From assembly GCA_049520395.1 (NCBI GenBank), contig JBEKPV010000004.1, positions 4,672-68,671 of the forward strand: 64,000 bases of DNA, in the 5' to 3' direction. The notes beneath the pieces were generated by a model that saw nothing but the letters and a program-made list of their open reading frames with translations, made no database searches and was not told where the DNA came from. Of the stretch, positions 1 through 31,985 are shown piece by piece (positions within the stretch are counted from its first letter, which is position 1; each line of letters opens with the position of its first letter). Made by a program: the position numbers and the translations under genes. The DNA comes from Tepidisphaeraceae bacterium (lineage in GTDB: Bacteria; Planctomycetota; Phycisphaerae; Tepidisphaerales; Tepidisphaeraceae).

Positions 1-660
1 GCCGAGGATTCGGAAGGATAGGTCGCGCAATTCGGCGGGCTTGCGGTCGAGCGCATCGAGCAATAATTCGACGCGTTTCATCGGGTCGAGGCGTGATACG
101 ATCAGAACGTTTGCGATTCCGCCGGTATAAGCGGCGCGGCGGGGGGCGGCGGCGAGATATTCGGCGGGAAGAAAATTGGTGACGACTTCGATTTTATCGG
201 CGCGCACGCCGTGGGCGATCATGCGCTGGCGGGCGTAATCGGAGACGGTGACGAACGTGACGGGGGCGTGGTTGAGCCATTTTTTGCGGCCGAAGCTGCC
301 GCGTTCGTCGGTGCCGCCGTGGACGATGTGGATGTGGTTGATTTTTCGGCGGTAGAGGAGGTTCAAGGCGATGCAGACGGCGGATTGCACGACGCCGGTG
401 GCGACGAAGGTGAGGGATCGGCGCTGCCGGAGTTCGGGGCGGAGGACTTTGGCGAACTCTTTGGCGCCGCGGAATCGGCGGGCGGCGAAGCCCAATTGCT
501 CGGCCAAGTCCATCGCCTCGCCGGGGGGTCCGAAAAGGATGGGGGTAAATTGGTCGGTCAGTCCGCGCACGGTGGCCAGGGCCATGCGCTCGGTGCCGAA
601 AAGATGGCTCGAATGCAGGACGTAGAGCAGAGGTTGCGGGTCGGTGGCGGGCAAGTTCAC
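1..660 (-). CDS. Glycosyltransferase, GT4-like (N-terminal part only; C-terminus lies beyond the window start)
   Basis: Absent from the ORF track because it runs off the window. My minus-strand translation from GTG at 660 gives VNLPATDPQPLLYVLHSSHLFGTERMALATVRGL...VTFVTVSDYARQRMIAHGV. This is clearly paralogous to the 657..1745 product (LVFVLHSSNLYGTERMSL..., ITFVTVSNYSRDKLLQYGV). The GTG start overlaps the upstream TGA stop (GTGA). Confidence 0.7.
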   Translation of the reverse strand, partial: MNLPATDPQPLLYVLHSSHLFGTERMALATVRGLTDQFTPILFGPPGEAMDLAEQLGFAARRFRGAKEFAKVLRPELRQRRSLTFVATGVVQSAVCIALNLLYRRKINHIHIVHGGTDERGSFGRKKWLNHAPVTFVTVSDYARQRMIAHGVRADKIEVVTNFLPAEYLAAAPRRAAYTGGIANVLIVSRLDPMKRVELLLDALDRKPAELRDLSFRILG

Positions 661-1745
661 GTCTCCGGAGCGAATAGGCGGCGATATTTTTCCAGGGACG
701 CTTTTTGCGAAAATTGAGTTTCCAGCGCGGCGGCGGCGCTGTCGACGATCGAATTCAAACGCGCGGGATCGGCTTGGCGCAGCTCAATTAAACGTTCGGC
801 GAAACTGATCGGATCGTCGGCCATGAATTTGAAGCCGGTTCGATTCTCCTCGACCAGCGACGCGGTGCCTCCCTGATCGGGCACCAGGACGGGCAGATGG
901 GCGGCCATCGCCTCCAGGACCACCAGGCCGAAGGCCTCGGTCGGACAGGCGTGGATCAACAGATCGCTTGTGGCGTATGCATTCACCGCGTCGGCGCGGA
1001 AGCCCAGGAATTTGACGCTCGCATATTTTCGCGCCCGGCGGTGGAGCATCTCCCGATCCGGGCCGTCGCCGATGATTTCGACCGGGAAATCGCCTAATTC
1101 CGGCCGGCAATCCAGCGCATCGAAAAACAGATCGACGCGTTTTAGGGTGACCAGGCGGCTGACGATCAGGGCCTTGGCGATCGGTGCCTCGAACCGGGCA
1201 CGGCGCGGAATTCCCCGAATCTGATCGTCGGGAATGAAATTGCCGACCACTTCGATCGGTCGGCGTACGCCGTATTGGAGCAACTTGTCGCGGGAATAAT
1301 TCGAAACCGTCACAAACGTGATGTTCAGCGGATTCAGGACCCATTTGCGGCCGTAATCCTTCAGTTCGCCGGCGCCGGCGTGAACCATCTGAATGTGCCT
1401 GATTTTTCGCCAGTAAATTAAATTCAGCGCCATGGCGACCAGGGAATAGCGCGGGCCGGTGGCGACGAGGGTGAGGGATTTTTTTTCGCGCAGGATCGGC
1501 CGCAAGGCTTTGGCCAGATCGTAGGACGTTCGATACTCGGCGGTGGAGTATCCCAGCCGAGCGGCTTCGATCAGCGCCGGCCCCGGAGGCCCTATGAAAA
1601 TGGATTCGAATTCATCGGCCAAGCCCTGCGCGGTCGACAGGGACATTCGCTCGGTGCCGTATAAATTGCTGCTGTGAAGGACAAAGACGAGCGGATGGCG
1701 CGACGGCATAGCGCATGAAGGTAACGATATTGCGCGGCTTGTCAC
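657..1745 (-). CDS. Glycosyltransferase family 4 (GT-B, group 1)
   Basis: 362-aa ORF. The C-terminal LIHACPTEAFGLVVLEAMAAHLPVLVPDQGGTASLVEE is the typical GT4 E-x7-E region. The GTG at 1745 overlaps the stop of the upstream gene (GTGA). An alternative ATG start lies at 1709. Confidence 0.8.
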   Translation of the reverse strand: MTSRAISLPSCAMPSRHPLVFVLHSSNLYGTERMSLSTAQGLADEFESIFIGPPGPALIEAARLGYSTAEYRTSYDLAKALRPILREKKSLTLVATGPRYSLVAMALNLIYWRKIRHIQMVHAGAGELKDYGRKWVLNPLNITFVTVSNYSRDKLLQYGVRRPIEVVGNFIPDDQIRGIPRRARFEAPIAKALIVSRLVTLKRVDLFFDALDCRPELGDFPVEIIGDGPDREMLHRRARKYASVKFLGFRADAVNAYATSDLLIHACPTEAFGLVVLEAMAAHLPVLVPDQGGTASLVEENRTGFKFMADDPISFAERLIELRQADPARLNSIVDSAAAALETQFSQKASLEKYRRLFAPET

Positions 1746-2554
1746 TGGCCGCGCAGGAGACGGAAGTATTGCCGGAAATCATCGGCGGATATTTCCATCA
1801 GCGCCTCGGCAAAACCGTGGCCGCGAAGCGATTGCAGGGAACGATAATGATTCAATCCGAGAATCGCGCCGGCGTAATCGTAGGTGGAGACCTGGCTGGT
1901 GAACGCGTTGATCGCTTGGCGTTTCAGATCGGCCACCGCCGTGATATCGACGAGCCGATTGGCGGGCAGAGGGGTCCAGACCTCGTAGCCGCGGATGATC
2001 AGGCGAAGCGCTACGTCGGGGGGCAATTGTGCTAAAAGCATGTTCAGGATGGAATTGGTCGCCCAATGGTCGTGGTGCTGGTCGGTCAGTGCGGGGAGAT
2101 AAATATATTTTGGCTGGTGTTTGCGGATGATTTTCTGAAGCGCGTCCAGAATTTCCCTAGTTTCGGATAAGTTTCCATCCGGGGCGTCGAGGAAGACGGG
2201 AGCCTGGGTGCCCAGGATTTGGGCGGCGCGGATGCTTTCGGCCTTTCGGCGCTGGCAGAGCGTGTGGTCGGGATCGTAGCCGCCCCATTTTCCGTCGGTG
2301 AGGACGACCACGGCGACCGGCGCGCCGGCCAGGACGTGGCGGCGGACGGCGCCGCCGGGGCCGATGACTTCGTCGTCGGGGTGCGGCGCCAGGACTAGGA
2401 CGGGCTGGGAATCGAATCGATCGATGGAGATGGAATCCGCGTCGCCGGCTCGCAGCCACGGCCACGGTCCCGGCGGCGTTTGTTCGCGCCCGATCAGGCG
2501 GCGAACCCAACGCGAAGCGCTAGAACGGCAGCGATTGATCCATCCAGTCGTCAT
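1742..2554 (-). CDS. PIG-L / LmbE family deacetylase
   Basis: 270 aa. It has the family signature VLVLAPHPDDEVIGPGG, and later HHDHWAT. ATG at 2554 overlaps the end of the SecA-like gene. Confidence 0.8.
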   Translation of the reverse strand: MTTGWINRCRSSASRWVRRLIGREQTPPGPWPWLRAGDADSISIDRFDSQPVLVLAPHPDDEVIGPGGAVRRHVLAGAPVAVVVLTDGKWGGYDPDHTLCQRRKAESIRAAQILGTQAPVFLDAPDGNLSETREILDALQKIIRKHQPKYIYLPALTDQHHDHWATNSILNMLLAQLPPDVALRLIIRGYEVWTPLPANRLVDITAVADLKRQAINAFTSQVSTYDYAGAILGLNHYRSLQSLRGHGFAEALMEISADDFRQYFRLLRGQ

Positions 2555-4457
2555 TCTTGAGGACTTGCTTGCGATTGAATCGGGCGAGTTTTTCCGCCCG
2601 GGCCTGGGCGATGGCGATCAAACGTGCGGCGGTGATGGCGCGCCAGCGGAAGCGGAGATAGGGGACGTGCCGGACGAACAGATCGTCCTGGGCACAGGCG
2701 AACAACTGAGCGCAACCGGGATCGCCCTGACGGGCGGCGCGGCCGTAAAGCTGTCGATCGACGCGGCCGGAGGCGTGCGGCTCGGTGGCGATGACGTGCA
2801 AGCCGCCGATTTCGGCGATTTCGCGCGCCAGTTTGATATCGGTGCCGCGTCCGGCCATGTTGGTGGCGACGGTGATTTTTCCGTGGCCGCCGGCCTCGGC
2901 GACGATGTTGGCTTCCTGCGCGGTTTGCGTGGCGTTGAGGACGCGATGGGGCCGTCCCAGGGTGGCGAGTCGGCGGCTGACTTCCTCCGACGCCAGGACG
3001 CTGCGCGTGCCGACGAGCACGGGGGCGCCGGTGTCGTTGATTTCGCAGACGCGCTGGACGACGGCTTCCCATTTTTCCAGCGCCGTGTCGAACATGCGAA
3101 GCGGCAGTTGCTGGCGGATACAGGGCTTGTTGGTGGGAATACGAACGATCGGGCGGTGATAGATCGACCAGAGTTCGCCGCGGGCTTCCCAGGCGGTGCC
3201 GGTCATCCCCGCCATGATCGGATATTGCCGGAAAAATCGCTGGAAACTCAATCGCGCGAGGTTTTCCTTGTCGGCGGTGACGGGCGCGCCTTCCTTGACT
3301 TCGATCGCCTGATGCAGGCCGTGGCGCCAGGAGCGGTCGGCCATGACGCGGCCGGTGAATTCGTCGATGATCTGCACTTTTCCATCGGCGGCGACGAGAT
3401 ATTGTTCGTCGCGCACGAAGCAATAGCGCGCGGTGAGGGATTGAGTAACCAGTTCCTCGCGGCGGCGCTGACCTTTCCAGAAGCCGCTGTCGTCGCGGGC
3501 CAGTTCGTCGAGATGGGCCTGGCCGCGCGGGGTTAAATCGACGGAGCGAACCGTCCAGTCGATCGTGAAATCCTGCTTGAGGACCAGTTGCGCCGCCAGC
3601 GCGTCGGCGCGCTGATACAGCTGGGCGTTGCCCTCGGCTTGCGGGGAACTGGAAATAATCAGGGGGGTGACCCCTTCGTCGATGAGCAGACTGTCGGCTT
3701 CGTCGACGAGCACGCGCCAGAGCCCGGGGACGAGCAAGCGGCCCTGCTGCGCGGAGACGCCGAGCATTCCCACGGCCGTCTGCACGGCGGTGCGCAAATC
3801 GCCCAGGGCGATCTGATCGCGGAGGAAATCGGCGACCAGTTCCTTGCTGGTGACGTAGACCACGTTGCGGCGGTAATGATCGTGCCGCTCGTGCGACGGG
3901 GAATCGTGGACGACGTGCCCGACTTTCAGGCCGAGCATTTCGTAAATCGGACTCATTTCCTCGGCGTCGCGTTGGACGAGGTAATCGTTGACGGTGATGA
4001 CGTGGACGGGGCGGCCGTTCCAGCCCCAGATGCTCGCTGCCATGGCGGCGGTGAGGGTTTTGCCTTCGCCGGTCGCCATTTCGATGATGACGCCCTGGCA
4101 CATGCCCAGGGCGCCGGCGATTTGGACGAGGAAGGGGCGGAGTCCGAGCGATCGGACGACGGCTTCGCGGGCGACGGCCATGGCGCGGTCCATCTTGGCG
4201 CCTTCGAGGCGGCCGAGACGCGCGATATCGCGCGATTCCTGAATCGCTTCGTGAAAATGGTGGGAACTGAGCTGTTGGATCTCTTTTTCCAGGGCGTCGA
4301 TTCGATGCGCCTGCGCCATCAATTTGGGCAGAACCCGCCGTTTGTTTTTGAACCAGCCGACGATGTTATGGCAGGCGAGGTCCAGATTTTTGAGATTGGG
4401 GGCTTTGACGCGGCGTGCGTCGAAGACGGACCAGAGATCAGGCAGTGCGGAGGACAT
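2520..4457 (-). CDS. SecA-like motor ATPase, short (645 aa): DEAD motor plus preprotein cross-linking region, no C-terminal scaffold/wing/linker domains
   Basis: SecA hallmarks are present: MATGEGKTL (Walker A), ITVNDYLVQRDAEEM, VDEADSLLIDEGVTPLIIS, IIDEFTGRVMADRSWRHGLHQAIEVKEG, LAGMTGTA, TNMAGRGTDIKL, GGLHVIATEPHASGRVDRQLYGRAARQGDPG. The ORF ends about 70 aa after the last motif. Confidence 0.8.
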   Translation of the reverse strand: MSSALPDLWSVFDARRVKAPNLKNLDLACHNIVGWFKNKRRVLPKLMAQAHRIDALEKEIQQLSSHHFHEAIQESRDIARLGRLEGAKMDRAMAVAREAVVRSLGLRPFLVQIAGALGMCQGVIIEMATGEGKTLTAAMAASIWGWNGRPVHVITVNDYLVQRDAEEMSPIYEMLGLKVGHVVHDSPSHERHDHYRRNVVYVTSKELVADFLRDQIALGDLRTAVQTAVGMLGVSAQQGRLLVPGLWRVLVDEADSLLIDEGVTPLIISSSPQAEGNAQLYQRADALAAQLVLKQDFTIDWTVRSVDLTPRGQAHLDELARDDSGFWKGQRRREELVTQSLTARYCFVRDEQYLVAADGKVQIIDEFTGRVMADRSWRHGLHQAIEVKEGAPVTADKENLARLSFQRFFRQYPIMAGMTGTAWEARGELWSIYHRPIVRIPTNKPCIRQQLPLRMFDTALEKWEAVVQRVCEINDTGAPVLVGTRSVLASEEVSRRLATLGRPHRVLNATQTAQEANIVAEAGGHGKITVATNMAGRGTDIKLAREIAEIGGLHVIATEPHASGRVDRQLYGRAARQGDPGCAQLFACAQDDLFVRHVPYLRFRWRAITAARLIAIAQARAEKLARFNRKQVLKNDDWMDQSLPF

Positions 4458-4464
4458 GATTTGT

Positions 4465-6672
4465 TCAGAGCCATTTACCGGTGTCGTTCACGGCGATCAA
4501 TTGCAGTGCGCGGCGCCACCACTGCCAGATGAGCGGTTTGCGGTCGAGGGTGAGGCGCACATAGGCGCGCTGGCCGGCGCAAATGCGTTCGCCGACGTTG
4601 TCGAGTTTGACGAGGGCTTCGAATTGCGGCGTGGTGGAGCGGATGCCGTTGGGGTCGCGAGGATCGACGAGGATTTCGCCGCCGCCGAGTTGGCCGAGGG
4701 CGGGGTGCGCCAGTTCGGTGACGGCGGCGGGGTAGACCGTCACATCGGTGCCGGGGAGGTTTTGTTCGATTGATCCCGAGAGGCGGATTTCCGCCTTTAC
4801 GCCGCTGACTTGTTTGACCAATTCACCGTCTTTTTGCTCGATGTCGCCCTTGACGATCAGTTTGTCGAGGACGGCGACGCTGCCGATTTCGGTTCCGCGC
4901 GCCAGGTAAGTGCCGATGACATCATCCAGTTTGGGAGCGACTAAGCGGCCGGAGAAGGGCGCTTTGATCTGCAAGGCGGCGTTTTTCTGCATGGCGTCGT
5001 CCAGGCGGCTTTGCCAGGCGGCCAATTCGGCCTGGGCCTTGATCAGCGCGTTCTGGTCGGTGGCCTGTGCCAAACGGATCAGGGCGTTGCTCTCGTCAAT
5101 TTTGGATTGGCACCACTGGATATCGTGATCGACTTCGGGGTTGGCGAGTTGGGCGATGACCTCGCCGGATTGAACGAGTTGTCCGTCGTGGGCGTTAACG
5201 GAGACGAGGCGTCCTTCCATGCCGGTTTTGAGGTCGCCGCTGATAATGCGTCCGGAGGCGTCGGAGGGATCATCCGGCTGGACGACGCCGGCGAAATCGA
5301 CGTGGACGGGAAACTTGATCAGCCCGATCACAATGACGATCGCCGCCAGAACCGTGCCGCAGAAGGCGAAGGCGCGGCCGCGTTTGCGATGGAGTTCCTG
5401 ATCGATCAGGAGATAGCGACCCAGACGGACGACGGGGACGACCAGCCAGGTGATGAGGCCGCCGAGGCCCATGAGGACGCCGAGTACGGGGACTTTATAG
5501 ATGACCAGCAGGACGATCACGAACCCGATGAAGACGCGATAAATGCTGCTGGCGATGGCGTAGGTGAGCAGCCAGGCGCGCTGGCCGACCGATGGCAGTG
5601 GTTGCTGCAGCTTGAGGCGGAAGACGTGGCGTTTGATCAAGCCGGTGGCGTATTCGGTGCTTTTCTGCCGAAGGTTGGGAATCTCAAGCAGGTCGGACAG
5701 GATGTAGTAACCGTCATACCGAAGCAGCGGATTGGCGTTGAAAATGAGGGTGGAAACGCTGGCGATGAACATGGCGTTATACGCCAGTTGGCTGATCAGC
5801 GGGTCGGTTTGCGGATTGGTAAAGTGCCAGATGAAGGCGCATATGGCGGCGATGAAAAGCTCGACGATCATCCCCGCGGAGCCGACGAAAATGCGCTGCC
5901 ACTTGCTGGGAAAGGCCCAGGCGGTGGAGGCGTCGACGTAAGGCGTGGGGACGAGCACCAGCAGCATGATGCCCAGTTCGTGACATTCTCCGCCAAAGCG
6001 CCGGCATGAGGCGGCGTGGCCCCATTCGTGGCAGAACTTGATCGCCACGAAGACGGCATAGAGATAGAAGAGATTTTCCCAATTGTGCTGCATGTCCAGA
6101 GCGTGCGCGGTGGCGGTTTGGAGATCGTGCCACTGCGGCAGGATTGTCGCCAGGGCGGCGATCATGACCACGATCCAGATCGCCGCGCCCAGCTTGCTGA
6201 AGAGCACTTTGGTGACAGGCATCCAACGGCGTAAAAATCGGTCCGGGTCCCAGATCGGAATGCGCGGGAAGAGGACATTCATCAGGCGATTCTGCATCTG
6301 CCGCTGCACCATCTGTTTGTGGCGGCGAAGCAGAACCGTGGCGTCGGGGGTGATGTCGGTCGCCAGCAGATTCGCGGAATAGAGCTGGGAAAGAATTTGG
6401 ATGACTTCAGGCTGGGTGGGGGCGTCGTCGGCGAGTTGGCCGCCGACGAGTTCCCAGGCTTCGGAGACGGTTCGGCGTCCGTCGAGGAGTCCGACGAAGC
6501 GGTAAGCCGCGTCGCTGAGACGATGGAACTGATTCCCCGCCAGATCGCGCACGACATACCAGCGTTCGCCGCGGAAGAATTGGCGGGAGATCTGCGCGCC
6601 CGAGCGCAGCCGCGGCCGCAATTCCGCGACGCGGTACCAGGACTCGGAAAATGTCGGGCGGAGTTGAAGCAT
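4465..6672 (-). CDS. Fusion protein: PqqD-like N-terminal domain + polytopic M50 (site-2-protease-like) metalloprotease + periplasmic HlyD-type adaptor domain
   Basis: 735 aa. The N-terminus HRLSDAAYRFVGLLDGRRTVSEAWELV...EVIQILSQLYSANLL resembles PqqD. The HExxH motif is in KFCHEWGHAASC, surrounded by hydrophobic helices. The C-terminal half has a lipoyl-like half-motif, a Gln/Ala-rich coiled coil (ALIKAQAELAAWQSRLDDAMQKNAALQIKAPFSGRLV) and a barrel-like tail. It lies 7 nt upstream of the SecA-like start. Confidence 0.7.
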   Translation of the reverse strand: MLQLRPTFSESWYRVAELRPRLRSGAQISRQFFRGERWYVVRDLAGNQFHRLSDAAYRFVGLLDGRRTVSEAWELVGGQLADDAPTQPEVIQILSQLYSANLLATDITPDATVLLRRHKQMVQRQMQNRLMNVLFPRIPIWDPDRFLRRWMPVTKVLFSKLGAAIWIVVMIAALATILPQWHDLQTATAHALDMQHNWENLFYLYAVFVAIKFCHEWGHAASCRRFGGECHELGIMLLVLVPTPYVDASTAWAFPSKWQRIFVGSAGMIVELFIAAICAFIWHFTNPQTDPLISQLAYNAMFIASVSTLIFNANPLLRYDGYYILSDLLEIPNLRQKSTEYATGLIKRHVFRLKLQQPLPSVGQRAWLLTYAIASSIYRVFIGFVIVLLVIYKVPVLGVLMGLGGLITWLVVPVVRLGRYLLIDQELHRKRGRAFAFCGTVLAAIVIVIGLIKFPVHVDFAGVVQPDDPSDASGRIISGDLKTGMEGRLVSVNAHDGQLVQSGEVIAQLANPEVDHDIQWCQSKIDESNALIRLAQATDQNALIKAQAELAAWQSRLDDAMQKNAALQIKAPFSGRLVAPKLDDVIGTYLARGTEIGSVAVLDKLIVKGDIEQKDGELVKQVSGVKAEIRLSGSIEQNLPGTDVTVYPAAVTELAHPALGQLGGGEILVDPRDPNGIRSTTPQFEALVKLDNVGERICAGQRAYVRLTLDRKPLIWQWWRRALQLIAVNDTGKWL

Positions 6673-6683
6673 GGTTCTTAAGA

Positions 6684-6718
6684 AGTTGCTAGTTGCCAGT
6701 TGCTAGTTGCTAGTTGTT
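6684..6718. repeat. Tandem heptamer array (AGTTGCT x5, with variants AGTTGCC and AGTTGTT), partly complementary to 6745..6755
   Basis: Read directly: agttgct agttgcc agttgct agttgct agttgtt. aactagcaact at 6745..6755 is the reverse complement of agttgctagtt. It is intercistronic, between the GAF-HlyD gene and the M50-HlyD gene. Confidence 0.8.
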
Positions 6719-6764
6719 GGTTAAAAAAGACGCTCGCTTCCGAGAACTAGCAACTCTTTCCCGT

Positions 6765-8556
6765 TCACATCCACAATTTCAGTCGGACGTAATCCATGAG
6801 TCGGTGCGTCCAGATCCAGACCAGGCGGCGTTTGCCGATATCGACGCGGGCTTCGCCGGCCATGCCGGGGCGCCAGGCGTCGGAGGATTGATCCAGATGA
6901 GCGTAGACGGTGAAGATGTTTTCGCCCTCTTTGGCGGACGGAAAGATTGGCCCGCAATCCGCTGGTGGCGGCGACGGTGAAAAGTTCATCGCCCTGTTTT
7001 TTGGGGGCCAGAACCTGATCGGTGAGATCGCCGCTCATGACGACGCCGTCAAAGGGGGCTTTGACCTGGGCTTTGTCGATTTGATATTGATAAAGCCGCG
7101 AGTCGGCGAGGGCGGCGTTTTCCTCCGCCAGCGCGATCGCCGCGTCGGCCTGTTTTTCCGGATTGGCGATGTCCTTGGTGTATTCGGCTTTATTCTTGGC
7201 GGCCTCGGCGTTGGAGCTGGCGAGCTTTAATTGGATGTCGGAGACGTCCATGGTCAGCAAGACCTGACCCTGGACGATGGAATCGCCGGGCTTGACCAGG
7301 ACGGATTTGATGTAGCCGTCGATGGGGGCGTCGAGCTTTCGTTTATCGAGCGATTCGAACTGGAACGGCGCGCCGACGTGATACATCGGCTTGAAAAGGC
7401 AGATGAAGATGATGGCCGCGGGAATGAACACGATCAGCAATTTGGCGATCATGTGCTCGGGGCCGATGGCTTTCTTGCCGAGTTCGCGGATGCTAAGCCC
7501 GGTTTTGGTGATGAGCCAGCGATCGTTCTGGTACCGGTCGTATAATTGCGGCGCCAGCAGATCGACCGCGACGGATAACCCGGTGGAGGCCTGGGGCGAA
7601 AGTTTGTGGCCCGGAGGAAATTCCAGGACGATGGCGCCGACGATATCGGCGCGGCGGCGCAGCGGGAGGGTGAGAACCGTGTTTCCGCCTTCGATGCGCG
7701 AGAGATTTTGAGCCGACCGGCTGACGTTGCCGCTGCCGGCGCCGTCGGGGTCGTAGAGGACGGTTTCTTCCTGATCGATGCTTTCTTCCATGACGGTTTC
7801 GATCTGTTTGATCAGGTCTTGTTTTTTGTCGAATTGTTCGGTGTGGGAGAGGGCTTTGACGCGGACGGTTCGGCCTTTGATCCAGCCGAGCGCGACGCGG
7901 CCGGCGCCGGTGCGGGTCGCCAGTTCGTTGCAAAGATTCATGGCGGCGGATTCAAATCCCTCGGCGGTGGCAACGGCGGTGGCGAGCTGCAAGACGTGCT
8001 GATGCGAATGGGCGACGATCTGCGACTGCTCGCTCTGGCGGCGCAGGGTGTATAAATCGAAATAGCCGGCGACCAGTTGCATCGACATCAGGCGCTGATG
8101 AGCCCGCTCCAGATTGCGGCAGCGGGTGATCACGGCGCTGGCGGCAATCACATCGCCCTCGGCGCGGAGCAGCGTCACCAGGCAGTACTGGGCCTCGGAG
8201 GAGACGTCGCCGCCTTGCACTTCGATGGCGCCGTCTTTTTGCTGCTCGATGCAGGGTTTAAGAATGTCCTGAAACGCGGAGATGGCGGCGGCGCGCGTTT
8301 CGGCGGTGCTGTTGTCGGGACGAACGTGGGCGATGTTGCGAAGGGAAAATCCCTGCTCGGATTTTTCGACGATGAAGCCGGCGGCTTCGGTGCCGGCGAC
8401 GACAACCGCCTGGGCGGTCAGGAGATCGTTGATGAACTGCGGCAGATTCGCCGAGGCCGTCAGCAGGCGCTGAACCAGCTTGGAACGGCCGGTGCCCCGC
8501 TGCTGCAACTGTTCGTCGTTCTGATTTTCCTGCGGTTCGACGATTCCTGAAGACAC
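6765..8556 (-). pseudogene. Tandem GAF-like cytoplasmic domains + TM + HlyD-type periplasmic adaptor; reading frame broken near 6933..6945
   Basis: The track ORF 6721..8556 reads sensibly up to ...GDELFTVAATSGLRANLSV, then becomes Arg-rich nonsense. The conserved-looking C-terminus (AKEGENIFTVYAHLDQSSDAWRPGMAGEARVDIGKRRLVWIWTHRLMDYVRLKLWM) sits in the +1 frame (track ORF 6765..6989) and ends at TGA 6765. Part of the beta-barrel segment seems to be missing between the two pieces. Confidence 0.55.
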
Positions 8557-8592
8557 GGTTCACCTGCTAATAAATGCCCAGCGATCACCCGA

Positions 8593-9450
8593 TTACGGAA
8601 GACGGACGTTCACCTGCAATCCGGCGGGCTTGTTTTCCTCGTTTTCCAATTCCAGGCGAACGGTCTGCTGATCGACCGTCGCATCCACCACGGGATCGAA
8701 ATAAATGACGGTTCCGGTGATCCAGTTATCCGGATCGCTCACATACGCGACCGAAAGCTTGTCGCCGAGTTTCAGTTTCTGCGTTTGCTCCATGGTCAGG
8801 TGCATGTCCACCCAGAGCGGCTTGATTTTGACGACCGTCAAGGCGCCGTCCGGCTGATTGGGATCGACGACTTCGCCGGAGTGAAGACTGACCTTCTCGA
8901 CGATTCCGTCGACGGGACTGAGCAATTTCATTTTGTCGACTTTAAGCTGTTGTTTGTCGAGTTCGGCCAATTTTTCGTCGTGAAGTTCCTTGGCCATTTG
9001 AATTTCAATGACGGCTTCGTCGTAATCGAGCTTGGCTTCCTCGACTTCCTCGAGATTCGCCGCCCCGCCGGTCTGGTAGGCCTTTTGTTTGTTTTGCCAC
9101 TGGCGACGCTTGGATTCGGCGTCGACCTTGGCGGCGTCGATCTTGCTGGTCGATTCCGCATCGATTTTCAGGGCTTTTAGATCCATTTCGTCCAGGTCGC
9201 TGTCTTCCTGGGCGAGGACTTGGCCGACGGTGACGACGTCGCCGGGCTTGACCAGCACATCCTTGAGCACGCCGACATCCATGAAGGAGAGATTGTGCTT
9301 TGAAGAGGGGGTGCTGAGGCCCTGAACGACGGTCGGGGTGGCGGCGGCCGTGGAATCCGGCGCGACGGCCGGCTCATCGGCGACGGCAGACCGAAGGAGA
9401 CAAACGCTCGACGCCACCAGGACGCTGTGGATCCATTTGCTGCGTTTCAT
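8593..9450 (-). CDS. Secreted HlyD-like / biotin-lipoyl-like periplasmic adaptor protein
   Basis: Signal peptide MKRSKWIHSVLVASSVCLLRSAVA follows ATG 9450, with GAGGAAG about 9 nt upstream. Lipoyl halves are VLVKPGDVVTVGQVLAQED and LLSPVDGIVEKVSLHSGEVV, flanking a Lys/Glu-rich coiled coil. I prefer this start over the track start at 9546. Confidence 0.65.
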   Translation of the reverse strand: MKRSKWIHSVLVASSVCLLRSAVADEPAVAPDSTAAATPTVVQGLSTPSSKHNLSFMDVGVLKDVLVKPGDVVTVGQVLAQEDSDLDEMDLKALKIDAESTSKIDAAKVDAESKRRQWQNKQKAYQTGGAANLEEVEEAKLDYDEAVIEIQMAKELHDEKLAELDKQQLKVDKMKLLSPVDGIVEKVSLHSGEVVDPNQPDGALTVVKIKPLWVDMHLTMEQTQKLKLGDKLSVAYVSDPDNWITGTVIYFDPVVDATVDQQTVRLELENEENKPAGLQVNVRLP

Positions 9451-9713
9451 GATTAAAGACTTCCTCACCGCGTCAAGAAAGCTGAACCGCGCCCTCCCCA
9501 AGGGGCTGGGCTGGCGAGCATAAGCGCCGCCAAACAACCTGTCCACGACAAAATTGCGATCCTACCCAGCTTAAATAGCGCTTGGTCGAATCAGCCCGGG
9601 GCCTTCGCAGACCCCAATTATTATCGGCAATTTCGATTGCGGTCCATTTGGGAATCATTCGTAAACCCATAATGTCTGGTTAGTTATATCGTATCTGTCG
9701 ATCCTGACGGAAG

Positions 9714-10094
9714 TTATCGGTAGCCCAGTTGCTCCAGATCCTCTTCCTTCAATCCGAAAAGGTGGCCAATTTCATGCAAGACGGTGATGCGCACCTGGCG
9801 GATGAGGTCGGGCTCGGAATTGCAGACGGATTCGATTGGTTTTTGGAAGATATAGATGACGTCGGGGAGGACGCCGGAATCTTCCACATGGCGAGCGGTC
9901 AGCGGCCGGCCGTGGTAGAGGCCGAGCAGGGTCGATCCCGGCCCGACGCCGGCGGTCTGAAGCTGTTTGGCGGAGGGATAATCCATCACCTCGACCGGAA
10001 CTTCCTCGAGGAATGAGGCGAATTGCGGCGGTAACTCGGCCAGCGCCCGCTCCACGAGCTTGGAGAATTGCGCTTTGCTCACCGAGCAGGGCAC
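9714..10094 (-). CDS. Small zincin-like metallopeptidase family protein (DUF1025 / COG3824-like)
   Basis: 126 aa with a C-terminal HEIGHLFGLKEEDLEQLGY (HExxH) motif, typical of this small family. Confidence 0.65.
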   Translation of the reverse strand: MPCSVSKAQFSKLVERALAELPPQFASFLEEVPVEVMDYPSAKQLQTAGVGPGSTLLGLYHGRPLTARHVEDSGVLPDVIYIFQKPIESVCNSEPDLIRQVRITVLHEIGHLFGLKEEDLEQLGYR

Positions 10095-10151
10095 GGCTAA
10101 AATCTCCCGACAACGGCAAACATTGTAACACCCTTGGAAAAAGAGGAATTC

Positions 10152-11123
10152 ATGCGAACCGGCCTGTTTCTCGGTCTGGCGCTTTTGCTATCTGGATGCG
10201 GAATGCCCAGTTTTCTGGTTACTCCCGTTTCAGGAACATACGAATTGCATGAGGAGGTGGTTCAGCCGGGAAAGGGGCTTTTTCCCGATAAAATCGCATT
10301 GATTCCGGTCGAAGGCATGCTGCTGGACGCGCGTAGCGGCGGGTTGCTGCAGGCTCAGGAGAATCCGATGAGCCTGTTTATCGAGGAACTGGATCAGGCG
10401 GCGGCCGATCCGTCGGTTAAGGCGGTGGTTTTGCGGGTCAATTCGCCGGGGGGGTCGGTGACGACATCGGACACGATGTACGACGCGATTCTTCGATTCA
10501 AGGACAAGACGCACAAGCCGGTGATCGCCTCGGCACAAGAGGTGGATGCCAGCGGGGCTTATTACGTGAGTTGCGGGGCGGACAAGATCGTGGCCAGTCC
10601 GACCAGCGTGGTGGGGAGCATTGGGGTGATTTTCGAGACGTTCGATTTCGTGGGGACCATGCAAATGCTGGGGGTTCAATCGGACGCGATTAAGAGCGCG
10701 GAATTGAAGGATATGGGGTCGCCCTTCAAGCATATGACACCGCACGAGCGTGCGCTGATGCAGGAAATGGTCAACGAGTATTACGCTCGATTCAAGTCGG
10801 TGGTGTTTAGTCACCGATCCATCAAGGACGCGGATACGCAGACGCTGGTGACCGACGGACAGGTTTTCAGCGGTGAAAAGGCGGTTGATTTGGGTTTGGT
10901 CGACGAAACGGGCCGGCTGGACGATGCGCTGGATATGGCCAGGCAGATGTCCGGAAGCCCCGATGCCGAGGCAGTGATGTACAAGCGACCCTACGGCTAT
11001 ACCGGCTCGATCTATGCGGATACCTCGGTTCCGACGCCCAGCAGTAGCTCACAGATGAACCTTCAGCTCCCCCTCGCCCAAGAAATGGTGCCCAGCGGGT
11101 TTTATTACCTGTGGCGGCCGTAA
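10152..11123 (+). CDS. sppA: Signal peptide peptidase SppA, 36K type (lipoprotein-like N-terminus)
   Basis: Motifs VLRVNSPGGSVTTSD, ASGAYYVSCGADKIVASPTSVVGSIGV and a lipobox LLLSGCG. ATG 10152 is preceded by AAGAGGAA. The track start at 10134 is a TTG. Confidence 0.8.
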   Translation: MRTGLFLGLALLLSGCGMPSFLVTPVSGTYELHEEVVQPGKGLFPDKIALIPVEGMLLDARSGGLLQAQENPMSLFIEELDQAAADPSVKAVVLRVNSPGGSVTTSDTMYDAILRFKDKTHKPVIASAQEVDASGAYYVSCGADKIVASPTSVVGSIGVIFETFDFVGTMQMLGVQSDAIKSAELKDMGSPFKHMTPHERALMQEMVNEYYARFKSVVFSHRSIKDADTQTLVTDGQVFSGEKAVDLGLVDETGRLDDALDMARQMSGSPDAEAVMYKRPYGYTGSIYADTSVPTPSSSSQMNLQLPLAQEMVPSGFYYLWRP

Positions 11124-28883: not shown

Positions 28884-29056
28884 GCGGGACCAAACTTACG
28901 GCTAAGGTCTGCGCCGGGCAAGCAAATAGCGCCGGGGCAAGTTTGGTGTTTGGCAGGTGCAAATTGGGTTGACCGTTGCGACCGATGGTTTAAGCTTTGG
29001 TTAAGCGATCTGGAGGAAGTTCGCCGGCAGGTCTGTTTTTCGGGGCGAAGATAAAA

Positions 29057-31858: not shown

Positions 31859-31985
31859 GTCCGCAAAAAGTTGAACGGACGGGGCTTAAGGATTTTGTTG
31901 CCTGTGGAGAAGGATGTAGCTAACCTCCACGCGATAAATATCTACGAACGTCGGAACGAGGATAACAAGAAGCGGGCGGGGCCGG

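What the first reader, a model, noticed from the sequence alone, without database searches (positions are those of the whole stretch)
1..9450. Co-directional ~9.4 kb operon joining a motor-only SecA paralogue, an S2P/M50 protease, three HlyD-type adaptors and a glycosylation trio
**What the sequence shows**
- Seven minus-strand genes are packed with 4-nt overlaps or gaps of at most about 90 nt.
- In order they are: secreted HlyD-like adaptor, GAF-TM-HlyD, PqqD-like/M50/HlyD fusion, short SecA-like ATPase, PIG-L/LmbE deacetylase, and two paralogous GT4 enzymes. The last GT4 gene runs off the window.

**Why it is unusual**
- HlyD-type adaptors normally partner ABC, RND or MFS inner-membrane pumps. 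No such pump gene is present here.
- The only energy source encoded is a SecA-type motor. The only polytopic component is the M50 protease fusion.
- The nearest known logic is the Gram-positive accessory Sec system (SecA2 plus GtfA/GtfB GT4 enzymes). That system has no HlyD adaptors or S2P protease, and no SecY2 is seen here.

**Interpretation**
I infer a candidate uncharacterised envelope-spanning system that processes and exports a glycosylated substrate or a glycoconjugate.
Basis: partly seen in the sequence, partly recalled or inferred. Interest (0 to 1): 0.8.

Follow-up and report, generated by a model that had tools for sequence, protein, structure and literature searches.

The report
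SecA-like giant-protein export module, GT4 add-on
This operon is a planctomycete copy of a widespread, still untested gene module, first described in 2015, that probably exports giant surface proteins; here it is followed by sugar-modifying genes found only in this bacterial family.

Summary
Window 1-9450 carries seven tightly packed minus-strand genes: periplasmic HlyD-type adaptor, GAF-TM-adaptor, PqqD-like/M50/adaptor fusion, 645-aa SecA reduced to its motor, PIG-L deacetylase and two paralogous GT4 enzymes. One gene (GAF-adaptor) is frameshifted here by a 113-nt gap absent from the otherwise identical public contig.

The four-gene core is not new. Kamneva et al. 2015 (PMC4452313) described it as a conserved "secondary SecA_DEAD / type-I-secretion-like" locus of unknown function. 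I confirm the order GAF-adaptor, M50-adaptor, SecA-like in about 62 of 66 and 69 of 70 loci from at least 10 phyla, with no ABC, RND or MFS pump.

The glycosylation genes are not part of that module. The GT4 pair follows the SecA-like gene only in a Tepidisphaeraceae clade, and PIG-L only in the window's subclade.

New lead: in other phyla the module sits next to giant proteins (up to 12,918 aa). All 13 whose N-terminus I could assess carry the LEPR-XLL motif. The M50 protein's N-domain resembles a leader-peptide-binding RRE domain.

Best reading: a SecA-motor-driven, leader-cleaving, type-I-like exporter of giant proteins. The cargo in this genome was not seen, and a glycosylation role is unproven.

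The parts
8593..9450 (-). Periplasmic HlyD/MFP-type adaptor, 285 aa. The N-terminus MKRSKWIHSVLVASSVCLLRSAVA looks like a signal peptide by eye.
   Evidence: - Pfam HlyD_D23 1.4e-15 and HlyD_3 5e-13.
- NCBIfam RND_mfp 3.5e-22, below its cut-off.
- A homologous stand-alone adaptor lies first (24 loci) or last (20 loci) in the module, among 49 loci with enough flank.
6765..8556 (-). GAF-TM-HlyD adaptor: cytoplasmic GAF-like region, one TM helix and a periplasmic MFP. It is frameshifted in the window by a 113-nt gap between 6936 and 6937. The literal ORF is 6721-8556; the true C-terminus is read in ORF 6765-6989.
   Evidence: - Frameshift seen. The intact 634-aa gene is in the public contig (L001 5789-7693).
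- HlyD_3 scores 7.7e-17 on the intact protein.
- GAF is E=0.029 here, but 54 of 63 family members hit GAF.
- The family profile matches MacA and EmrA adaptors in the PDB.
- It lies directly upstream of the M50 gene in about 69 of 70 loci.
4465..6672 (-). Fusion protein of 735 aa: N-terminal PqqD/RRE-like domain (about residues 20-105), polytopic M50/site-2-protease domain (HEWGH at 215-219; NPLLRYDGY at 312-322), a further TM helix and a C-terminal periplasmic MFP with an alpha-hairpin.
   Evidence: - Pfam M50 4.3e-8, above its cut-off; HlyD_3 3.4e-7; PqqD 1e-3.
- NCBIfam daptide_HExxH leader peptidase 5.3e-49 and YydH/LiaK 8e-13, both below cut-off.
- Invariant H215, E216, H219, N312, D320 and G321 in 28 diverse homologues.
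- AlphaFold model with pLDDT 85.
- C-terminal part matches MexA, MacA and AcrA at E about 1e-12.
- N-domain matches the TbiB1 RRE-leader complexes, TM(target) 0.64-0.68 and probability 0.99.
2520..4457 (-). Motor-only SecA paralogue, 645 aa: NBD1 + preprotein cross-linking domain + NBD2 and a short C-terminal helix. It has no wing/scaffold domain, two-helix finger or SEC-C motif.
   Evidence: - Pfam SecA_DEAD 9e-86, SecA_PP_bind 1.7e-26 and P-loop_SecA 4.6e-48; no SecA_SW hit.
- All SecA and SecA2 NCBIfam models score below their cut-offs.
- Walker A (GEGKT), the DEAD motif and TNMAGRGTDI are invariant in 35 homologues.
- All 35 homologues show the same three domains only.
- It lies directly downstream of the M50 gene in about 62 of 66 loci.
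1742..2554 (-). PIG-L/LmbE-family GlcNAc-conjugate deacetylase, 270 aa. Its start overlaps the SecA-like stop by 35 nt. It is a subclade-specific addition.
   Evidence: - Pfam PIG-L 3.6e-27.
- BshB1 scores 88.9 bits against a cut-off of 182.5.
- It is present at this position only in the window's own contigs (L001-L003) and in L005.
- Closest other homologues (63% identity or less) are stand-alone genes in unrelated contexts.
657..1745 (-). GT4 glycosyltransferase #1. Public gene calls give 350 aa from ATG 1709; the ORF extends to GTG 1745. The EX7E motif is present.
   Evidence: - Pfam Glycos_transf_1 5.8e-24 and Glyco_transf_4 5.6e-8.
- The best NCBIfam hit is BshA, at 81.8 bits against a cut-off of 273.7.
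- EX7E motif found.
- Homologues lie downstream of the SecA-like gene in L005, L008, L162-L164 and L166.
1..660 (-). GT4 glycosyltransferase #2, a paralogue 51% identical to #1. The first 220 of 357 codons are in the window; the gene runs off the window start.
   Evidence: - Translation.
- Pfam Glyco_transf_4 1.7e-8.
- The full gene is followed by a convergent Orn/DAP decarboxylase gene in L001.
- Identity to GT4 #1; EX7E motif.
9451..9713 (-). Intergenic region upstream of the first adaptor gene. It is the inferred promoter region of the operon.
   Evidence: This is inference only. Three sigma-70-like matches lie on the minus strand at 9646-9449, but the total count in the region is not above shuffles (4 against 2.5 +/- 1.4).

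Best explanation
**What it is (shown)**
Window 1-9450 is a Tepidisphaeraceae (Planctomycetota) copy of the widely conserved "secondary SecA_DEAD" module. It comprises a periplasmic membrane-fusion adaptor, a GAF-TM-adaptor, an RRE-like/M50-protease/adaptor fusion and a SecA paralogue reduced to NBD1-PPXD-NBD2.

**How it probably works (inferred)**
- The module is a type-I-secretion-like trans-envelope exporter.
- The SecA-like ATPase and the polytopic M50 protein take the place of the missing ABC transporter.
- The three adaptors build the periplasmic conduit to a TolC-type outer-membrane channel encoded elsewhere.
- The cargo is a very large, repeat-rich, non-Sec surface protein. It carries a basic N-terminus followed by the LEPR-XLL motif ([L/F]E.LEPRxLLSAD).
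- The RRE-like domain binds this leader and the M50 protease removes it.
- The motor feeds the unfolded chain N-terminus first.
- The GAF domain gates the process.

**The glycosylation genes**
- The two GT4 genes are a Tepidisphaeraceae-specific extension of the operon and are probably co-transcribed. PIG-L is an addition in the window's subclade only.
- They may modify the cargo, by analogy with GtfA/GtfB and SecA2. They may equally be a neighbouring cell-envelope cassette.

**Open point**
The cargo gene of this genome was not seen.

**Confidence**
- Membership in the module: about 0.95.
- The export mechanism as stated: about 0.5.
- A functional link to glycosylation: about 0.25.
For: **The module is real and conserved**
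- Domain content was confirmed.
- The module was already described as a conserved locus by Kamneva et al. 2015.
- I sampled 80 species-representative genomes from at least 10 phyla.
  - The SecA-like gene follows the M50 gene in about 62 of 66 loci with enough flank.
  - The GAF-adaptor gene precedes it in about 69 of 70.
- The M50-adaptor family is large, with 4,075 clusters at 50% identity scoring E<1e-30.

**Catalytic competence**
- HExxH and NPLLRxDGY are invariant in the M50 domain.
- Walker A, the DEAD motif and motif VI are invariant in the SecA-like protein.

**Secretion context**
- The adaptors resemble MacA, EmrA, MexA and AcrA.
- A TolC/OEP gene is adjacent in about 14 genome loci and in 2 plasmid loci.
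- There is no HlyB-type ABC gene in any locus.

**Leader handling**
- The M50 domain is closest to RiPP leader peptidases.
- The N-domain has a beta3-alpha3 topology. Its best structural matches are TbiB1 RRE-leader complexes.

**Cargo**
- Giant ORFs of 1,000 aa or more occur in 32 of 80 module loci against 4 of 74 control loci.
- They lie immediately next to the module in about 27 genome loci and in 8 of 9 plasmid loci.
- All 13 whose N-terminus could be assessed carry LEPR-XLL.
  - 7 are in genome loci. 6 of these pass NF012209, and the seventh (L020) shows the motif by pattern match only.
  - 6 are on plasmids.
  - Of the 6 on plasmids, one (Pontibrevibacter) rests on the PGAP product name alone.

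**Independent literature**
- Giant proteins of Omnitrophota and Actinobacteriota carry fused SecA_DEAD+PPXD domains lacking the wing/scaffold (10.1101/2023.11.21.568195).
Against: - There is no experiment on any member. In Methylobacterium most module genes were barely expressed in exponential growth.
- The window, and all Tepidisphaerales loci seen, lack an adjacent LEPR-XLL giant, a TolC gene and DUF3467. Cargo and channel for this genome are therefore assumed, not seen.
- Nothing shows how a site-2-type protease plus single-pass adaptors would form a protein-conducting channel, or how the SecA-like protein docks.
- No structural match to a solved S2P was returned for the N-terminal half.
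- The RRE assignment rests on a sub-threshold Pfam hit and weak Foldseek E-values (0.35-0.5), despite good TM-scores.
- The Thalassospira locus has a LEPR-XLL giant and the adaptors and M50 gene but no SecA-like gene. The motor may therefore be dispensable or encoded elsewhere.
- The GAF-adaptor gene is frameshifted in this window.
Confidence: 0.5

Rival explanations
1. The seven genes form one dedicated machine that makes and exports a glycosylated protein or a glycoconjugate. The two GT4 enzymes and PIG-L are integral components, comparable to SecA2 with GtfA/GtfB.
For: - The genes are co-directional and tightly packed, and the PIG-L start overlaps the SecA-like stop by 35 nt.
- A GT4 pair, or a triple, follows the SecA-like gene in at least 7 distinct Tepidisphaeraceae lineages: L001, L005, L008, L162, L163, L164 and L166. 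Gaps are 19-67 nt in L163, L164 and L166.
- At least 22 further contig-size coincidences link SecA-like and GT4 homologues.
- Both GT4 proteins keep the EX7E motif.
- Omnitrophota giant proteins with fused SecA-like domains also carry glycosyltransferase domains.
Against: - GT4 and PIG-L are absent next to the module in all 74 non-Tepidisphaerales genomes. They are also absent in Humisphaera, L006, L009, L011 and L012.
- In L162 a Fic/HTH/PIN cassette separates the SecA-like gene from the GT4 pair.
- The same slot holds unrelated genes in sister lineages.
- The downstream housekeeping synteny is conserved just as well, so adjacency may simply be inherited.
- The best GT4 matches are BshA-like and generic, not GtfA.
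- A 59%-identical GT4 homologue sits in an unrelated context.
- PIG-L relatives are stand-alone genes.
Confidence: 0.15
2. The module is a regulated-intramembrane-proteolysis or signalling complex rather than an exporter. The S2P-type protease would cleave a membrane-bound regulator under control of the GAF sensor, and the SecA-like ATPase would act as an unfoldase or extractor.
For: - Peptidase family M50 is best known for site-2 cleavage of anti-sigma factors (established knowledge).
- A GAF domain is present in 54 of 63 homologues.
- PAS-GGDEF-EAL genes lie nearby in 9 loci, and one GAF-adaptor homologue has a PilZ domain.
Against: - Three periplasmic adaptors per module and adjacent TolC genes have no role in such signalling.
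- The M50 domain is closest to RiPP leader peptidases and carries an RRE-like domain instead of a PDZ domain.
- No sigma or anti-sigma pair is a recurrent neighbour.
- Giant LEPR-XLL proteins are the dominant neighbour.
Confidence: 0.1
3. The module is an exporter and maturation system for a small ribosomal peptide such as a bacteriocin or RiPP. The RRE would bind the precursor, M50 would remove the leader and the adaptors would export the peptide.
For: - There is an RRE-like N-domain, and the closest protease families are daptide and epipeptide leader peptidases.
- A small conserved DUF3467 gene lies just upstream of the GAF-adaptor gene in 23 genome loci and in 6 plasmid loci.
Against: - No RiPP-modifying enzyme (radical SAM, YcaO or lanthionine synthetase type) is a recurrent neighbour.
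- A SecA-type polypeptide motor with a PPXD domain is unnecessary for a short peptide.
- DUF3467 shows no leader/core pattern. It is absent from the window and from all Tepidisphaerales loci.
- Giant LEPR-XLL proteins account for the RRE equally well.
Confidence: 0.08

Closest known systems
"Secondary SecA_DEAD / type-I-secretion-related" conserved locus of Kamneva, Poudel and Ward 2015 (PLoS One 10:e0129066; PMC4452313)
   Same: - It has the same four proteins: a short SecA_DEAD protein lacking the wing/scaffold, a Peptidase_M50+HlyD protein, a GAF+HlyD protein and a HlyD/Biotin_lipoyl protein.
- It has the same proposal that SecA_DEAD and M50 substitute for the ABC transporter.
- The taxonomic spread is similar (PVC, Proteobacteria, Nitrospirae, Chlorobi), and OEP genes are sometimes adjacent.
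   Different: - That paper reports no PqqD/RRE-like domain, no DUF3467 partner, no cargo and no glycosyltransferases.
- The window adds a clade-specific GT4 pair and PIG-L.
Type I secretion systems (HlyB-HlyD-TolC; the LapEBC system for the giant adhesin LapA)
   Same: - Membrane-fusion adaptors with MacA/EmrA/HlyD-like folds.
- TolC-family partner genes in some loci.
- Giant RTX/Calx-beta repeat proteins encoded next to the system.
- Possible c-di-GMP-related neighbours.
   Different: - There is no ABC transporter.
- The energy source is a SecA-type motor.
- There are three different adaptors, two of them fused to cytoplasmic or polytopic modules.
- The candidate signal is N-terminal (LEPR-XLL), not C-terminal.
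- A membrane metalloprotease is built in.
Accessory Sec system of Gram-positive bacteria (SecA2/SecY2, Asp1-3, GtfA/GtfB)
   Same: - A second SecA paralogue dedicated to very large repetitive surface proteins.
- In this window it sits next to two paralogous GT4-family genes.
   Different: - There are no SecY2 or Asp genes.
- The SecA-like protein lacks the whole C-terminal third and scores far below the SecA2 model cut-offs.
- The organism is diderm, and the module has adaptors and an M50 protease.
- The GT4 genes are not GtfA-like by NCBIfam and are limited to one family.
Peptidase-containing bacteriocin exporters and RiPP leader peptidases (PCAT ABC exporters; M50 proteases of daptide and epipeptide clusters; RRE/PqqD domains such as TbiB1)
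   Same: - The logic of recognising a leader, cutting it and exporting the product.
- The M50 domain is most similar to these leader peptidases.
- The N-domain has the RRE fold.
   Different: - The substrates inferred here are proteins of thousands of residues.
- There are no modifying enzymes.
- The motor is SecA-like, not ABC.
SecA_DEAD+PPXD domains fused into giant proteins of Omnitrophota and Actinobacteriota (West-Roberts et al. 2023, bioRxiv 10.1101/2023.11.21.568195)
   Same: - A motor-only SecA lacking the wing/scaffold, associated with giant proteins and proposed to drive their export.
- Glycosyltransferase and peptidase domains occur alongside.
   Different: - There the motor is part of the giant polypeptide.
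- Here it is a separate 645-aa protein in an operon with adaptors and an M50 protease.
- No LEPR-XLL link is reported there.

Membership tests
Kamneva-type secondary SecA_DEAD module | Short SecA_DEAD protein lacking the wing/scaffold domain | tested here: met
   Only SecA_DEAD, SecA_PP_bind and P-loop_SecA are detected. The same holds in 35 of 35 homologues.
Kamneva-type secondary SecA_DEAD module | Adjacent Peptidase_M50 + HlyD fusion protein with TM helices | tested here: met
   - M50 scores 33.2 bits against a cut-off of 27.2, and HlyD_3 is detected.
- The AlphaFold model shows about 9 TM helices plus an MFP domain.
Kamneva-type secondary SecA_DEAD module | Adjacent GAF + HlyD protein | tested here: met
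   - The HlyD part is clear.
- GAF is only E=0.029 in this copy.
- The protein aligns full-length with a family in which 54 of 63 members hit GAF.
- The gene is frameshifted in the window.
Kamneva-type secondary SecA_DEAD module | Additional stand-alone HlyD/Biotin_lipoyl adaptor and gene order conserved across phyla | tested here: met
   - The order is conserved in about 62 of 66 and 69 of 70 loci.
- The stand-alone adaptor is first in 24 loci and last in 20.
Type I secretion system | ABC transporter (HlyB type) as the inner-membrane energiser | tested here: not met
   - None is present in the window.
- Only 3 of 80 loci hold any ABC-ATPase-like ORF, all of 259 aa or less.
Type I secretion system | Membrane fusion protein | tested here: met
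   Three are present. Sequence and fold match MacA, EmrA, MexA and AcrA.
Type I secretion system | TolC-family outer-membrane factor | tested here: inconclusive
   - None is present in the 64-kb window.
- One is adjacent in about 14 of 80 genome loci and in 2 plasmid loci.
- The rest of this genome could not be searched.
Type I secretion system | Substrate with a C-terminal, uncleaved secretion signal | not tested
   The candidate cargo carries a conserved N-terminal LEPR-XLL motif instead. C-termini were not analysed.
Accessory Sec system (SecA2/SecY2) | SecA2 equivalog | tested here: not met
   - TIGR03714 scores 450.7 bits against a cut-off of 930.
- TIGR04221 scores 438.4 against 725.
- TIGR04397 scores 475.5 against 1085.
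Accessory Sec system (SecA2/SecY2) | SecY2 channel and Asp1-3 accessory proteins in the locus | tested here: not met
   The genes in the locus all have other assignments, and no such family appears among the recurrent neighbours. This is an indirect test.
Accessory Sec system (SecA2/SecY2) | GtfA/GtfB glycosyltransferase pair acting on the cargo | tested here: inconclusive
   - Two paralogous GT4 genes are present (51% identity).
- Their best NCBIfam hits are BshA-like and generic. No GtfA model is among the 25 matches listed.
- The cargo is unknown.
Site-2 protease (Peptidase M50) | HExxH and a downstream NxxPxxxxDG zinc-binding motif within TM helices | tested here: met
   HEWGH at 215-219 and NPLLRYDGY at 312-322 are invariant in 28 homologues.
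Site-2 protease (Peptidase M50) | Structural similarity to a solved S2P | tested here: inconclusive
   No S2P entry appears among the top Foldseek matches for residues 1-455. There is no sequence match in the PDB.
RiPP recognition element (PqqD-like) | Three-stranded sheet plus three-helix winged-helix fold that binds a leader peptide | tested here: inconclusive
   - Fold met: beta3-alpha3 at residues 26-99.
- TbiB1-leader complexes match with TM(target) 0.64-0.68.
- Pfam PqqD scores 19.9 bits against a cut-off of 23.4.
- Leader binding was not tested.
Bacillithiol/mycothiol-type GlcNAc transfer plus deacetylation (BshA/BshB, MshA/MshB) | Equivalog-level match to BshA and BshB | tested here: not met
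   - BshA scores 81.8 bits against a cut-off of 273.7.
- BshB1 scores 88.9 bits against 182.5.
- No BshC-like gene is present.

The most novel reading that the evidence does not exclude
The GAF-adaptor / RRE-M50-adaptor / motor-only SecA / adaptor module, with a TolC partner, would be a distinct and widespread secretion pathway for giant proteins carrying the N-terminal LEPR-XLL leader.
- Proteins of 4,000 to 12,900 aa were seen next to the module here.
- The class plausibly includes the 20,647- and 36,806-aa proteins of Chlorobium chlorochromatii.
- The leader would be bound by the RRE-like domain and cut by the M50 protease.
- In Tepidisphaeraceae a GtfA/GtfB-like GT4 pair, plus PIG-L in this lineage, would have been recruited into the operon to glycosylate the cargo.
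Probability: 0.35. Interest if true: 0.85.

Novelty: new variant of a known kind. Interest (0 to 1): 0.55.

Why it matters
- The core module was noticed in 2015 but has never been studied experimentally.
- It is very widespread: thousands of protein clusters across at least 10 phyla, including cultivable rhizobia, roseobacters and methanotrophs.
- If it is what it appears to be, it is a secretion route in diderm bacteria that uses a SecA-type motor and a membrane protease instead of an ABC transporter.
- It would also explain how LEPR-XLL giant proteins leave the cell. A 2026 preprint describes these proteins as lacking any known export signal.
- The association found here gives a directly testable cargo-machine pair in cultivable strains.
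- For this particular window the added value is smaller. It shows a family-specific extension of the operon with glycosylation genes whose role is open.

Tried and rejected
- **Premature conclusion on the GT4 pair.** From the species-representative genomes I first concluded the GT4 pair was limited to the window's own subclade. A protein search with GT4 #1 and four more neighbourhood look-ups overturned this. The pair is common in a Tepidisphaeraceae clade.
- **Metagenome scan with GT4 #1.** It returned only distant GT4 genes (42% identity or less over short stretches) and was uninformative.
- **DUF3467 as a SecB-like chaperone.**
  - The DUF3467 profile found nothing in the PDB.
  - No literature was found.
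- **Fold search with the full-length M50-adaptor model.** It was dominated by the adaptor domain. I re-modelled residues 1-455 separately. That model gave RRE matches but no S2P match.
- **Promoter and terminator scan of 1-10300.** Counts were not above shuffles. It neither supports nor contradicts a single transcript.
- **Bacillithiol- or mycothiol-type pathway for GT4 plus PIG-L.** Rejected, because scores are far below the equivalog cut-offs.
- **Proteins in the slot downstream of the SecA-like gene as shared cargo.** I compared the L006 734-aa PEP-CTERM beta-helix protein with the Humisphaera 515-aa protein. They are not homologous to each other, have no match in the window and carry no LEPR motif.
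- **Partners in the rest of the window.** No TolC/OEP, DUF3467 or LEPR-motif protein was found. Ten other large ORFs are housekeeping or typical planctomycete genes.

Full report
**1. What is in the window**

ORF listing and translation with Pfam and NCBIfam scans confirm seven co-directional minus-strand genes.
- 8593-9450: a 285-aa HlyD-type adaptor with a signal-peptide-like N-terminus.
- 6765-8556: a cytoplasmic domain, one TM helix and a HlyD adaptor.
- 4465-6672: a 735-aa fusion of three parts.
  - A weak PqqD-like N-domain (E=1e-3).
  - A Peptidase_M50 domain (33.2 bits against a cut-off of 27.2).
  - A HlyD-type adaptor.
- 2520-4457: a 645-aa SecA paralogue with SecA_DEAD, the preprotein cross-linking domain and NBD2. 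It has no wing/scaffold or SEC-C domain.
- 1742-2554: a PIG-L/LmbE deacetylase.
- 657-1745: a GT4 glycosyltransferase.
- 1-660: the first 220 codons of a second GT4.

Gaps between genes are 36, 92 and 7 nt, followed by a 35-nt overlap. PIG-L to GT4 #1 is a 4-nt overlap or a 32-nt gap depending on the start codon. GT4 #1 to GT4 #2 is a 4-nt overlap.

The exact SecA-like protein is on a public JGI contig of 77.7 kb, and NCBI names its source a Tepidisphaeraceae MAG. That contig shows the second GT4 is 357 aa. It is followed by a convergent Orn/DAP decarboxylase gene, so the operon ends there. The two GT4 proteins are 51% identical and both keep the EX7E motif.

**2. A flaw in the window copy**

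The window is 100% identical to the public contig except for 113 nt, which are missing between window 6936 and 6937. This shifts the frame of the GAF-TM-adaptor gene.
- The literal ORF ends in an Arg-rich out-of-frame tail.
- The true C-terminus lies in ORF 6765-6989.
- The intact gene encodes 634 aa, and all relatives are intact.
- No flanking direct repeat is evident.
- I cannot tell whether this is a sequence-version artefact or a recent deletion.

**3. The core is already published**

A literature search found Kamneva, Poudel and Ward 2015 (PMC4452313). They described:
- secondary SecA_DEAD proteins lacking the wing/scaffold domain;
- a conserved locus with a Peptidase_M50+HlyD protein, a GAF+HlyD protein and a HlyD/Biotin_lipoyl protein;

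They also proposed that SecA_DEAD supplies ATPase activity and that the M50 protein supplies the membrane component in place of an ABC transporter. No experimental follow-up was found.

**4. How conserved is it?**

The M50-adaptor protein has 4,075 relatives (50%-identity cluster representatives) at E<1e-30, mostly full-length at about 715 aa. In 28 diverse members H215, E216, H219 (HExxH) and N312, D320, G321 (NPLLRxDGY) are invariant.

A scan of species-representative genomes returned 80 loci. They come from:
- Planctomycetota, Verrucomicrobiota and Lentisphaerota;
- Nitrospirota and Methylomirabilota;
- alpha-, beta- and gamma-Proteobacteria;
- Desulfobacterota and Myxococcota;
- Spirochaetota and Bacteroidota.

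I labelled ORFs with the window's proteins.
- The SecA-like gene follows the M50 gene in 61 of 66 loci with 2 kb or more of flank. This is 62 after correcting one over-extended ORF.
- The GAF-adaptor gene precedes the M50 gene in 68 of 70, or 69 after correction.
- The stand-alone adaptor is first in 24 loci, mostly PVC. It is last in 20 loci, mostly Proteobacteria and Nitrospirota.

Other family-wide checks:
- GAF is detected in 54 of 63 family members.
- All 35 SecA-like members tested have only the three motor domains.
- Those 35 keep invariant Walker A, DEAD and motif VI residues.
- No HlyB-type ABC gene is present in any locus.

**5. Are the glycosylation genes part of it?**

Evidence against:
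- No PIG-L or GT4 homologue lies next to the module in any of the 74 non-Tepidisphaerales genomes.
- The cultured Humisphaera borealis has the four-gene core and the same upstream genes (Zincin_1, SppA). It carries an unrelated 515-aa protein after the SecA-like gene.
- Lineage L006 has a 734-aa PEP-CTERM beta-helix protein in that position.
- The closest PIG-L relatives outside the window's subclade (63% identity or less) are stand-alone genes in unrelated contexts.

Evidence for a clade-level link:
- A protein search with GT4 #1 found many 45-63% homologues. Their contig sizes coincide with those of SecA-like homologues in at least 22 cases.
- Direct look-ups confirmed adjacency in several lineages.
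  - L163: SecA-like, GT4, GT4.
  - L164: SecA-like followed by three GT4 genes.
  - L166: the full core followed by GT4, GT4, with a different upstream context.
  - L162: SecA-like, a Fic/HTH/PIN insert, then GT4, GT4.
  - L008: the GT4 pair without PIG-L.
- One 59%-identical GT4 homologue sits elsewhere.

Conclusion:
- The GT4 pair is a stable extension in a Tepidisphaeraceae clade. Its members have SecA-like proteins 74-100% identical to the window's in the lineages checked directly.
- PIG-L is a later insertion in the window's subclade.
- The downstream housekeeping genes are syntenic across the same clade. These are the Orn/DAP decarboxylase, AP endonuclease, AIRS, STAS and Kdo genes. Adjacency alone therefore does not prove a shared function.
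- Same-strand packing makes co-transcription likely. A promoter and terminator scan was uninformative.

**6. What else travels with the module?**

I clustered all other ORFs in the 80 loci and ran Pfam on representatives. Recurrent neighbours were:
- a small DUF3467 protein just upstream of the GAF-adaptor gene in 23 loci;
- TolC/OEP genes in about 14 loci;
- PAS-GGDEF-EAL genes in 9 loci;
- very large RTX/Calx-beta proteins.

None of the first two is in the window.

**7. The giant-protein link**

Enrichment:
- ORFs of 1,000 aa or more occur in 32 of 80 module loci (36 in 1.30 Mb).
- They occur in 4 of 74 unrelated control loci (4 in 0.65 Mb).
- About 27 giants lie immediately next to the module.
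  - They are upstream on the same strand in Proteobacteria and Nitrospirota.
  - They are downstream of the SecA-like gene in PVC genomes.

N-terminal motif in genome loci:
- All seven giants whose N-terminus lies inside the fetched locus show a basic stretch followed by [L/F]E.LEPRxLLSAD.
- They have no hydrophobic Sec-type core.
- Six pass the NCBIfam LEPR-XLL model NF012209, scoring 24.7-30.7 bits against a cut-off of 17.
- The seventh (L020) shows the motif by pattern match only.

Independent check in PGAP-annotated plasmids. Eight of nine loci examined have a giant gene directly upstream of the module:

| Plasmid host | Giant protein | Motif evidence | Notes |
|---|---|---|---|
| Pseudosulfitobacter sp. 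DSM 107133 | 12,918 aa | PGAP name "LEPR-XLL domain-containing protein"; motif read | SapC gene inside the module |
| Pontibrevibacter nitratireducens | 10,603 aa | PGAP name only | |
| Thalassospira marina | 4,033 aa | PGAP name; motif read | no SecA-like gene in the locus; TolC present |
| Mesorhizobium ciceri R30 | 10,518 aa | motif read | |
| Methylosinus sp. C49 | 8,847 aa | motif read | TolC present |
| Alisedimentitalea scapharcae | 8,148 aa | motif lies in frame just upstream of the annotated start | |
| Ensifer adhaerens | over 6,023 aa | N-terminus not seen | |
| Pseudohalocynthiibacter aestuariivivens | over 2,547 aa | N-terminus not seen | |

In total, 13 of 13 giants whose N-terminus could be assessed carry the motif. 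PGAP names the SecA-like gene variously "prepilin peptidase", "DEAD/DEAH box helicase", "SecA" or "hypothetical". All match the window's protein at E<=1e-125.

**8. Structure**

An AlphaFold model of the M50-adaptor protein has mean pLDDT 85. It shows:
- an N-terminal beta3-alpha3 domain;
- about nine TM helices with the S2P-type hairpin;
- a C-terminal adaptor with an alpha-hairpin.

The adaptor part matches MexA, MacA and AcrA at E about 1e-12.

A separate model of residues 1-455 has pLDDT 82. Its best meaningful matches are TbiB1, a lasso-peptide RRE, bound to its leader peptide. These have probability 0.99 and TM(target) 0.64-0.68, but weak E-values.

By NCBIfam the protease domain is closest to RiPP leader peptidases. 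The hits are daptide HExxH at 5e-49 and YydH/LiaK at 8e-13, both below cut-off.

**9. Literature that fits**
- West-Roberts et al. 2023 report giant proteins of Omnitrophota and Actinobacteriota with fused SecA_DEAD+PPXD domains lacking the wing/scaffold. These sit alongside glycosyltransferase and peptidase domains and were proposed to serve self-export.
- A 2026 preprint notes the N-terminal LEPRxLL motif on the 36,806- and 20,647-aa proteins of Chlorobium chlorochromatii. It says they lack known transport signals.
- That preprint also reports sapC and tolC neighbours and a horizontally acquired secA in the same genome.
- No paper in the library links LEPR-XLL to the Kamneva module.

**10. 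Interpretation**

Shown:
- The window holds a member of the conserved module.
- The catalytic motifs are intact.
- There is no ABC, RND or MFS pump.
- The glycosylation genes are clade-specific.

Inferred:
- The module is a type-I-like exporter driven by a SecA-type motor.
- The LEPR-XLL leader is bound by the RRE-like domain and removed by the M50 protease.
- The chain is fed N-terminus first through an adaptor-TolC conduit.

Unknown for this genome:
- The cargo and the outer-membrane channel.
- Whether the GT4 and PIG-L enzymes act on the cargo.

The main rivals are less well supported. They are an integral glyco-export machine, an intramembrane-proteolysis signalling complex and a small-peptide exporter. 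The reasons are given under each rival.

**11. Verdict**
- The core is already known as an uncharacterised module.
- The window is a new variant, with a family-specific GT4 (and PIG-L) extension.
- The most valuable outcome is the cargo lead, which makes the module's function testable in cultivable bacteria.

Noticed in passing
window 6936/6937 (compare L001 7409-7521): The window lacks 113 nt that are present in the otherwise 100% identical public contig Ga0439231_0000069. This frameshifts the GAF-TM-adaptor gene. No flanking direct repeat is evident, so it may be an artefact or a recent deletion.
   Followed up: partly
L018, L020, L032, L037, L055, L068, L074; plasmid loci L167, L168, L170, L175, L177, L179: Giant proteins (up to 12,918 aa) with an N-terminal LEPR-XLL motif lie directly next to the SecA-like/M50/adaptor module. 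All 13 whose N-terminus could be assessed carry the motif. No paper in the library makes this link.
   Followed up: yes
L014, L018, L025, L038 and others (23 genome loci); L167, L175, L177-L179: A small DUF3467 protein (about 110 aa) is encoded immediately upstream of the GAF-adaptor gene in many non-Tepidisphaerales loci. It has no PDB relative, no detectable relation to SecB and no literature. It is absent from the window.
   Followed up: partly
L167, L168, L175, L179 (RefSeq plasmids): PGAP names the motor-only SecA paralogue inconsistently: "prepilin peptidase", "DEAD/DEAH box helicase", "hypothetical protein" or "preprotein translocase subunit SecA". The M50-adaptor fusion is named "PqqD family protein", "biotin/lipoyl-binding protein" or "site-2 protease family protein".
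   Followed up: yes
L162 11221-13718; L164 2068-3595: Toxin-antitoxin and defence-type cassettes are inserted into the Tepidisphaeraceae locus. Fic + HTH + PIN lie between the SecA-like gene and the GT4 pair in L162. DarT + Macro lie upstream of the first adaptor in L164. TIR-domain genes are nearby in L162.
   Followed up: no
L177 (Thalassospira marina pCSC3H3): This locus has a LEPR-XLL giant, DUF3467, the GAF-adaptor, the M50-adaptor, an adaptor and TolC, but no SecA-like gene. The motor may be encoded elsewhere or be dispensable in some systems.
   Followed up: no
L168 20245-21066; compare Chlorobium chlorochromatii Cag_662 in the 2026 preprint: A SapC-family gene sits inside the module in Pseudosulfitobacter. 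A sapC homologue also neighbours the LEPRxLL giants of Chlorobium chlorochromatii. It may be another accessory component.
   Followed up: no
window 9714-10094 (-) and 10134-11123 (+): A Zincin_1 metallopeptidase-like gene and a signal peptide peptidase SppA gene lie upstream of the operon. Both are syntenic with the module across Tepidisphaeraceae, but not in L166 or in other phyla.
   Followed up: partly
window 27198-35048: An FHA-SpoIIE (PP2C-type) phosphatase gene lies next to two very large Ser/Thr kinase genes (953 and 1,020 aa).
   Followed up: no
window 43327-45501: A TPR-rich protein has a C-terminal Glyco_transf_41 (O-GlcNAc-transferase-like) domain. It is followed at 45559-46608 by a protein with a prepilin-type N-terminal methylation motif.
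   Followed up: no
9 loci including L021, L023, L038, L058 (e.g. L058 16099-17835); one member of alignment A2: PAS-GGDEF-EAL genes recur near the module, and one GAF-adaptor homologue carries a PilZ domain. This hints at cyclic-di-GMP control, as in the LapD/LapG system for the giant adhesin LapA.
   Followed up: no
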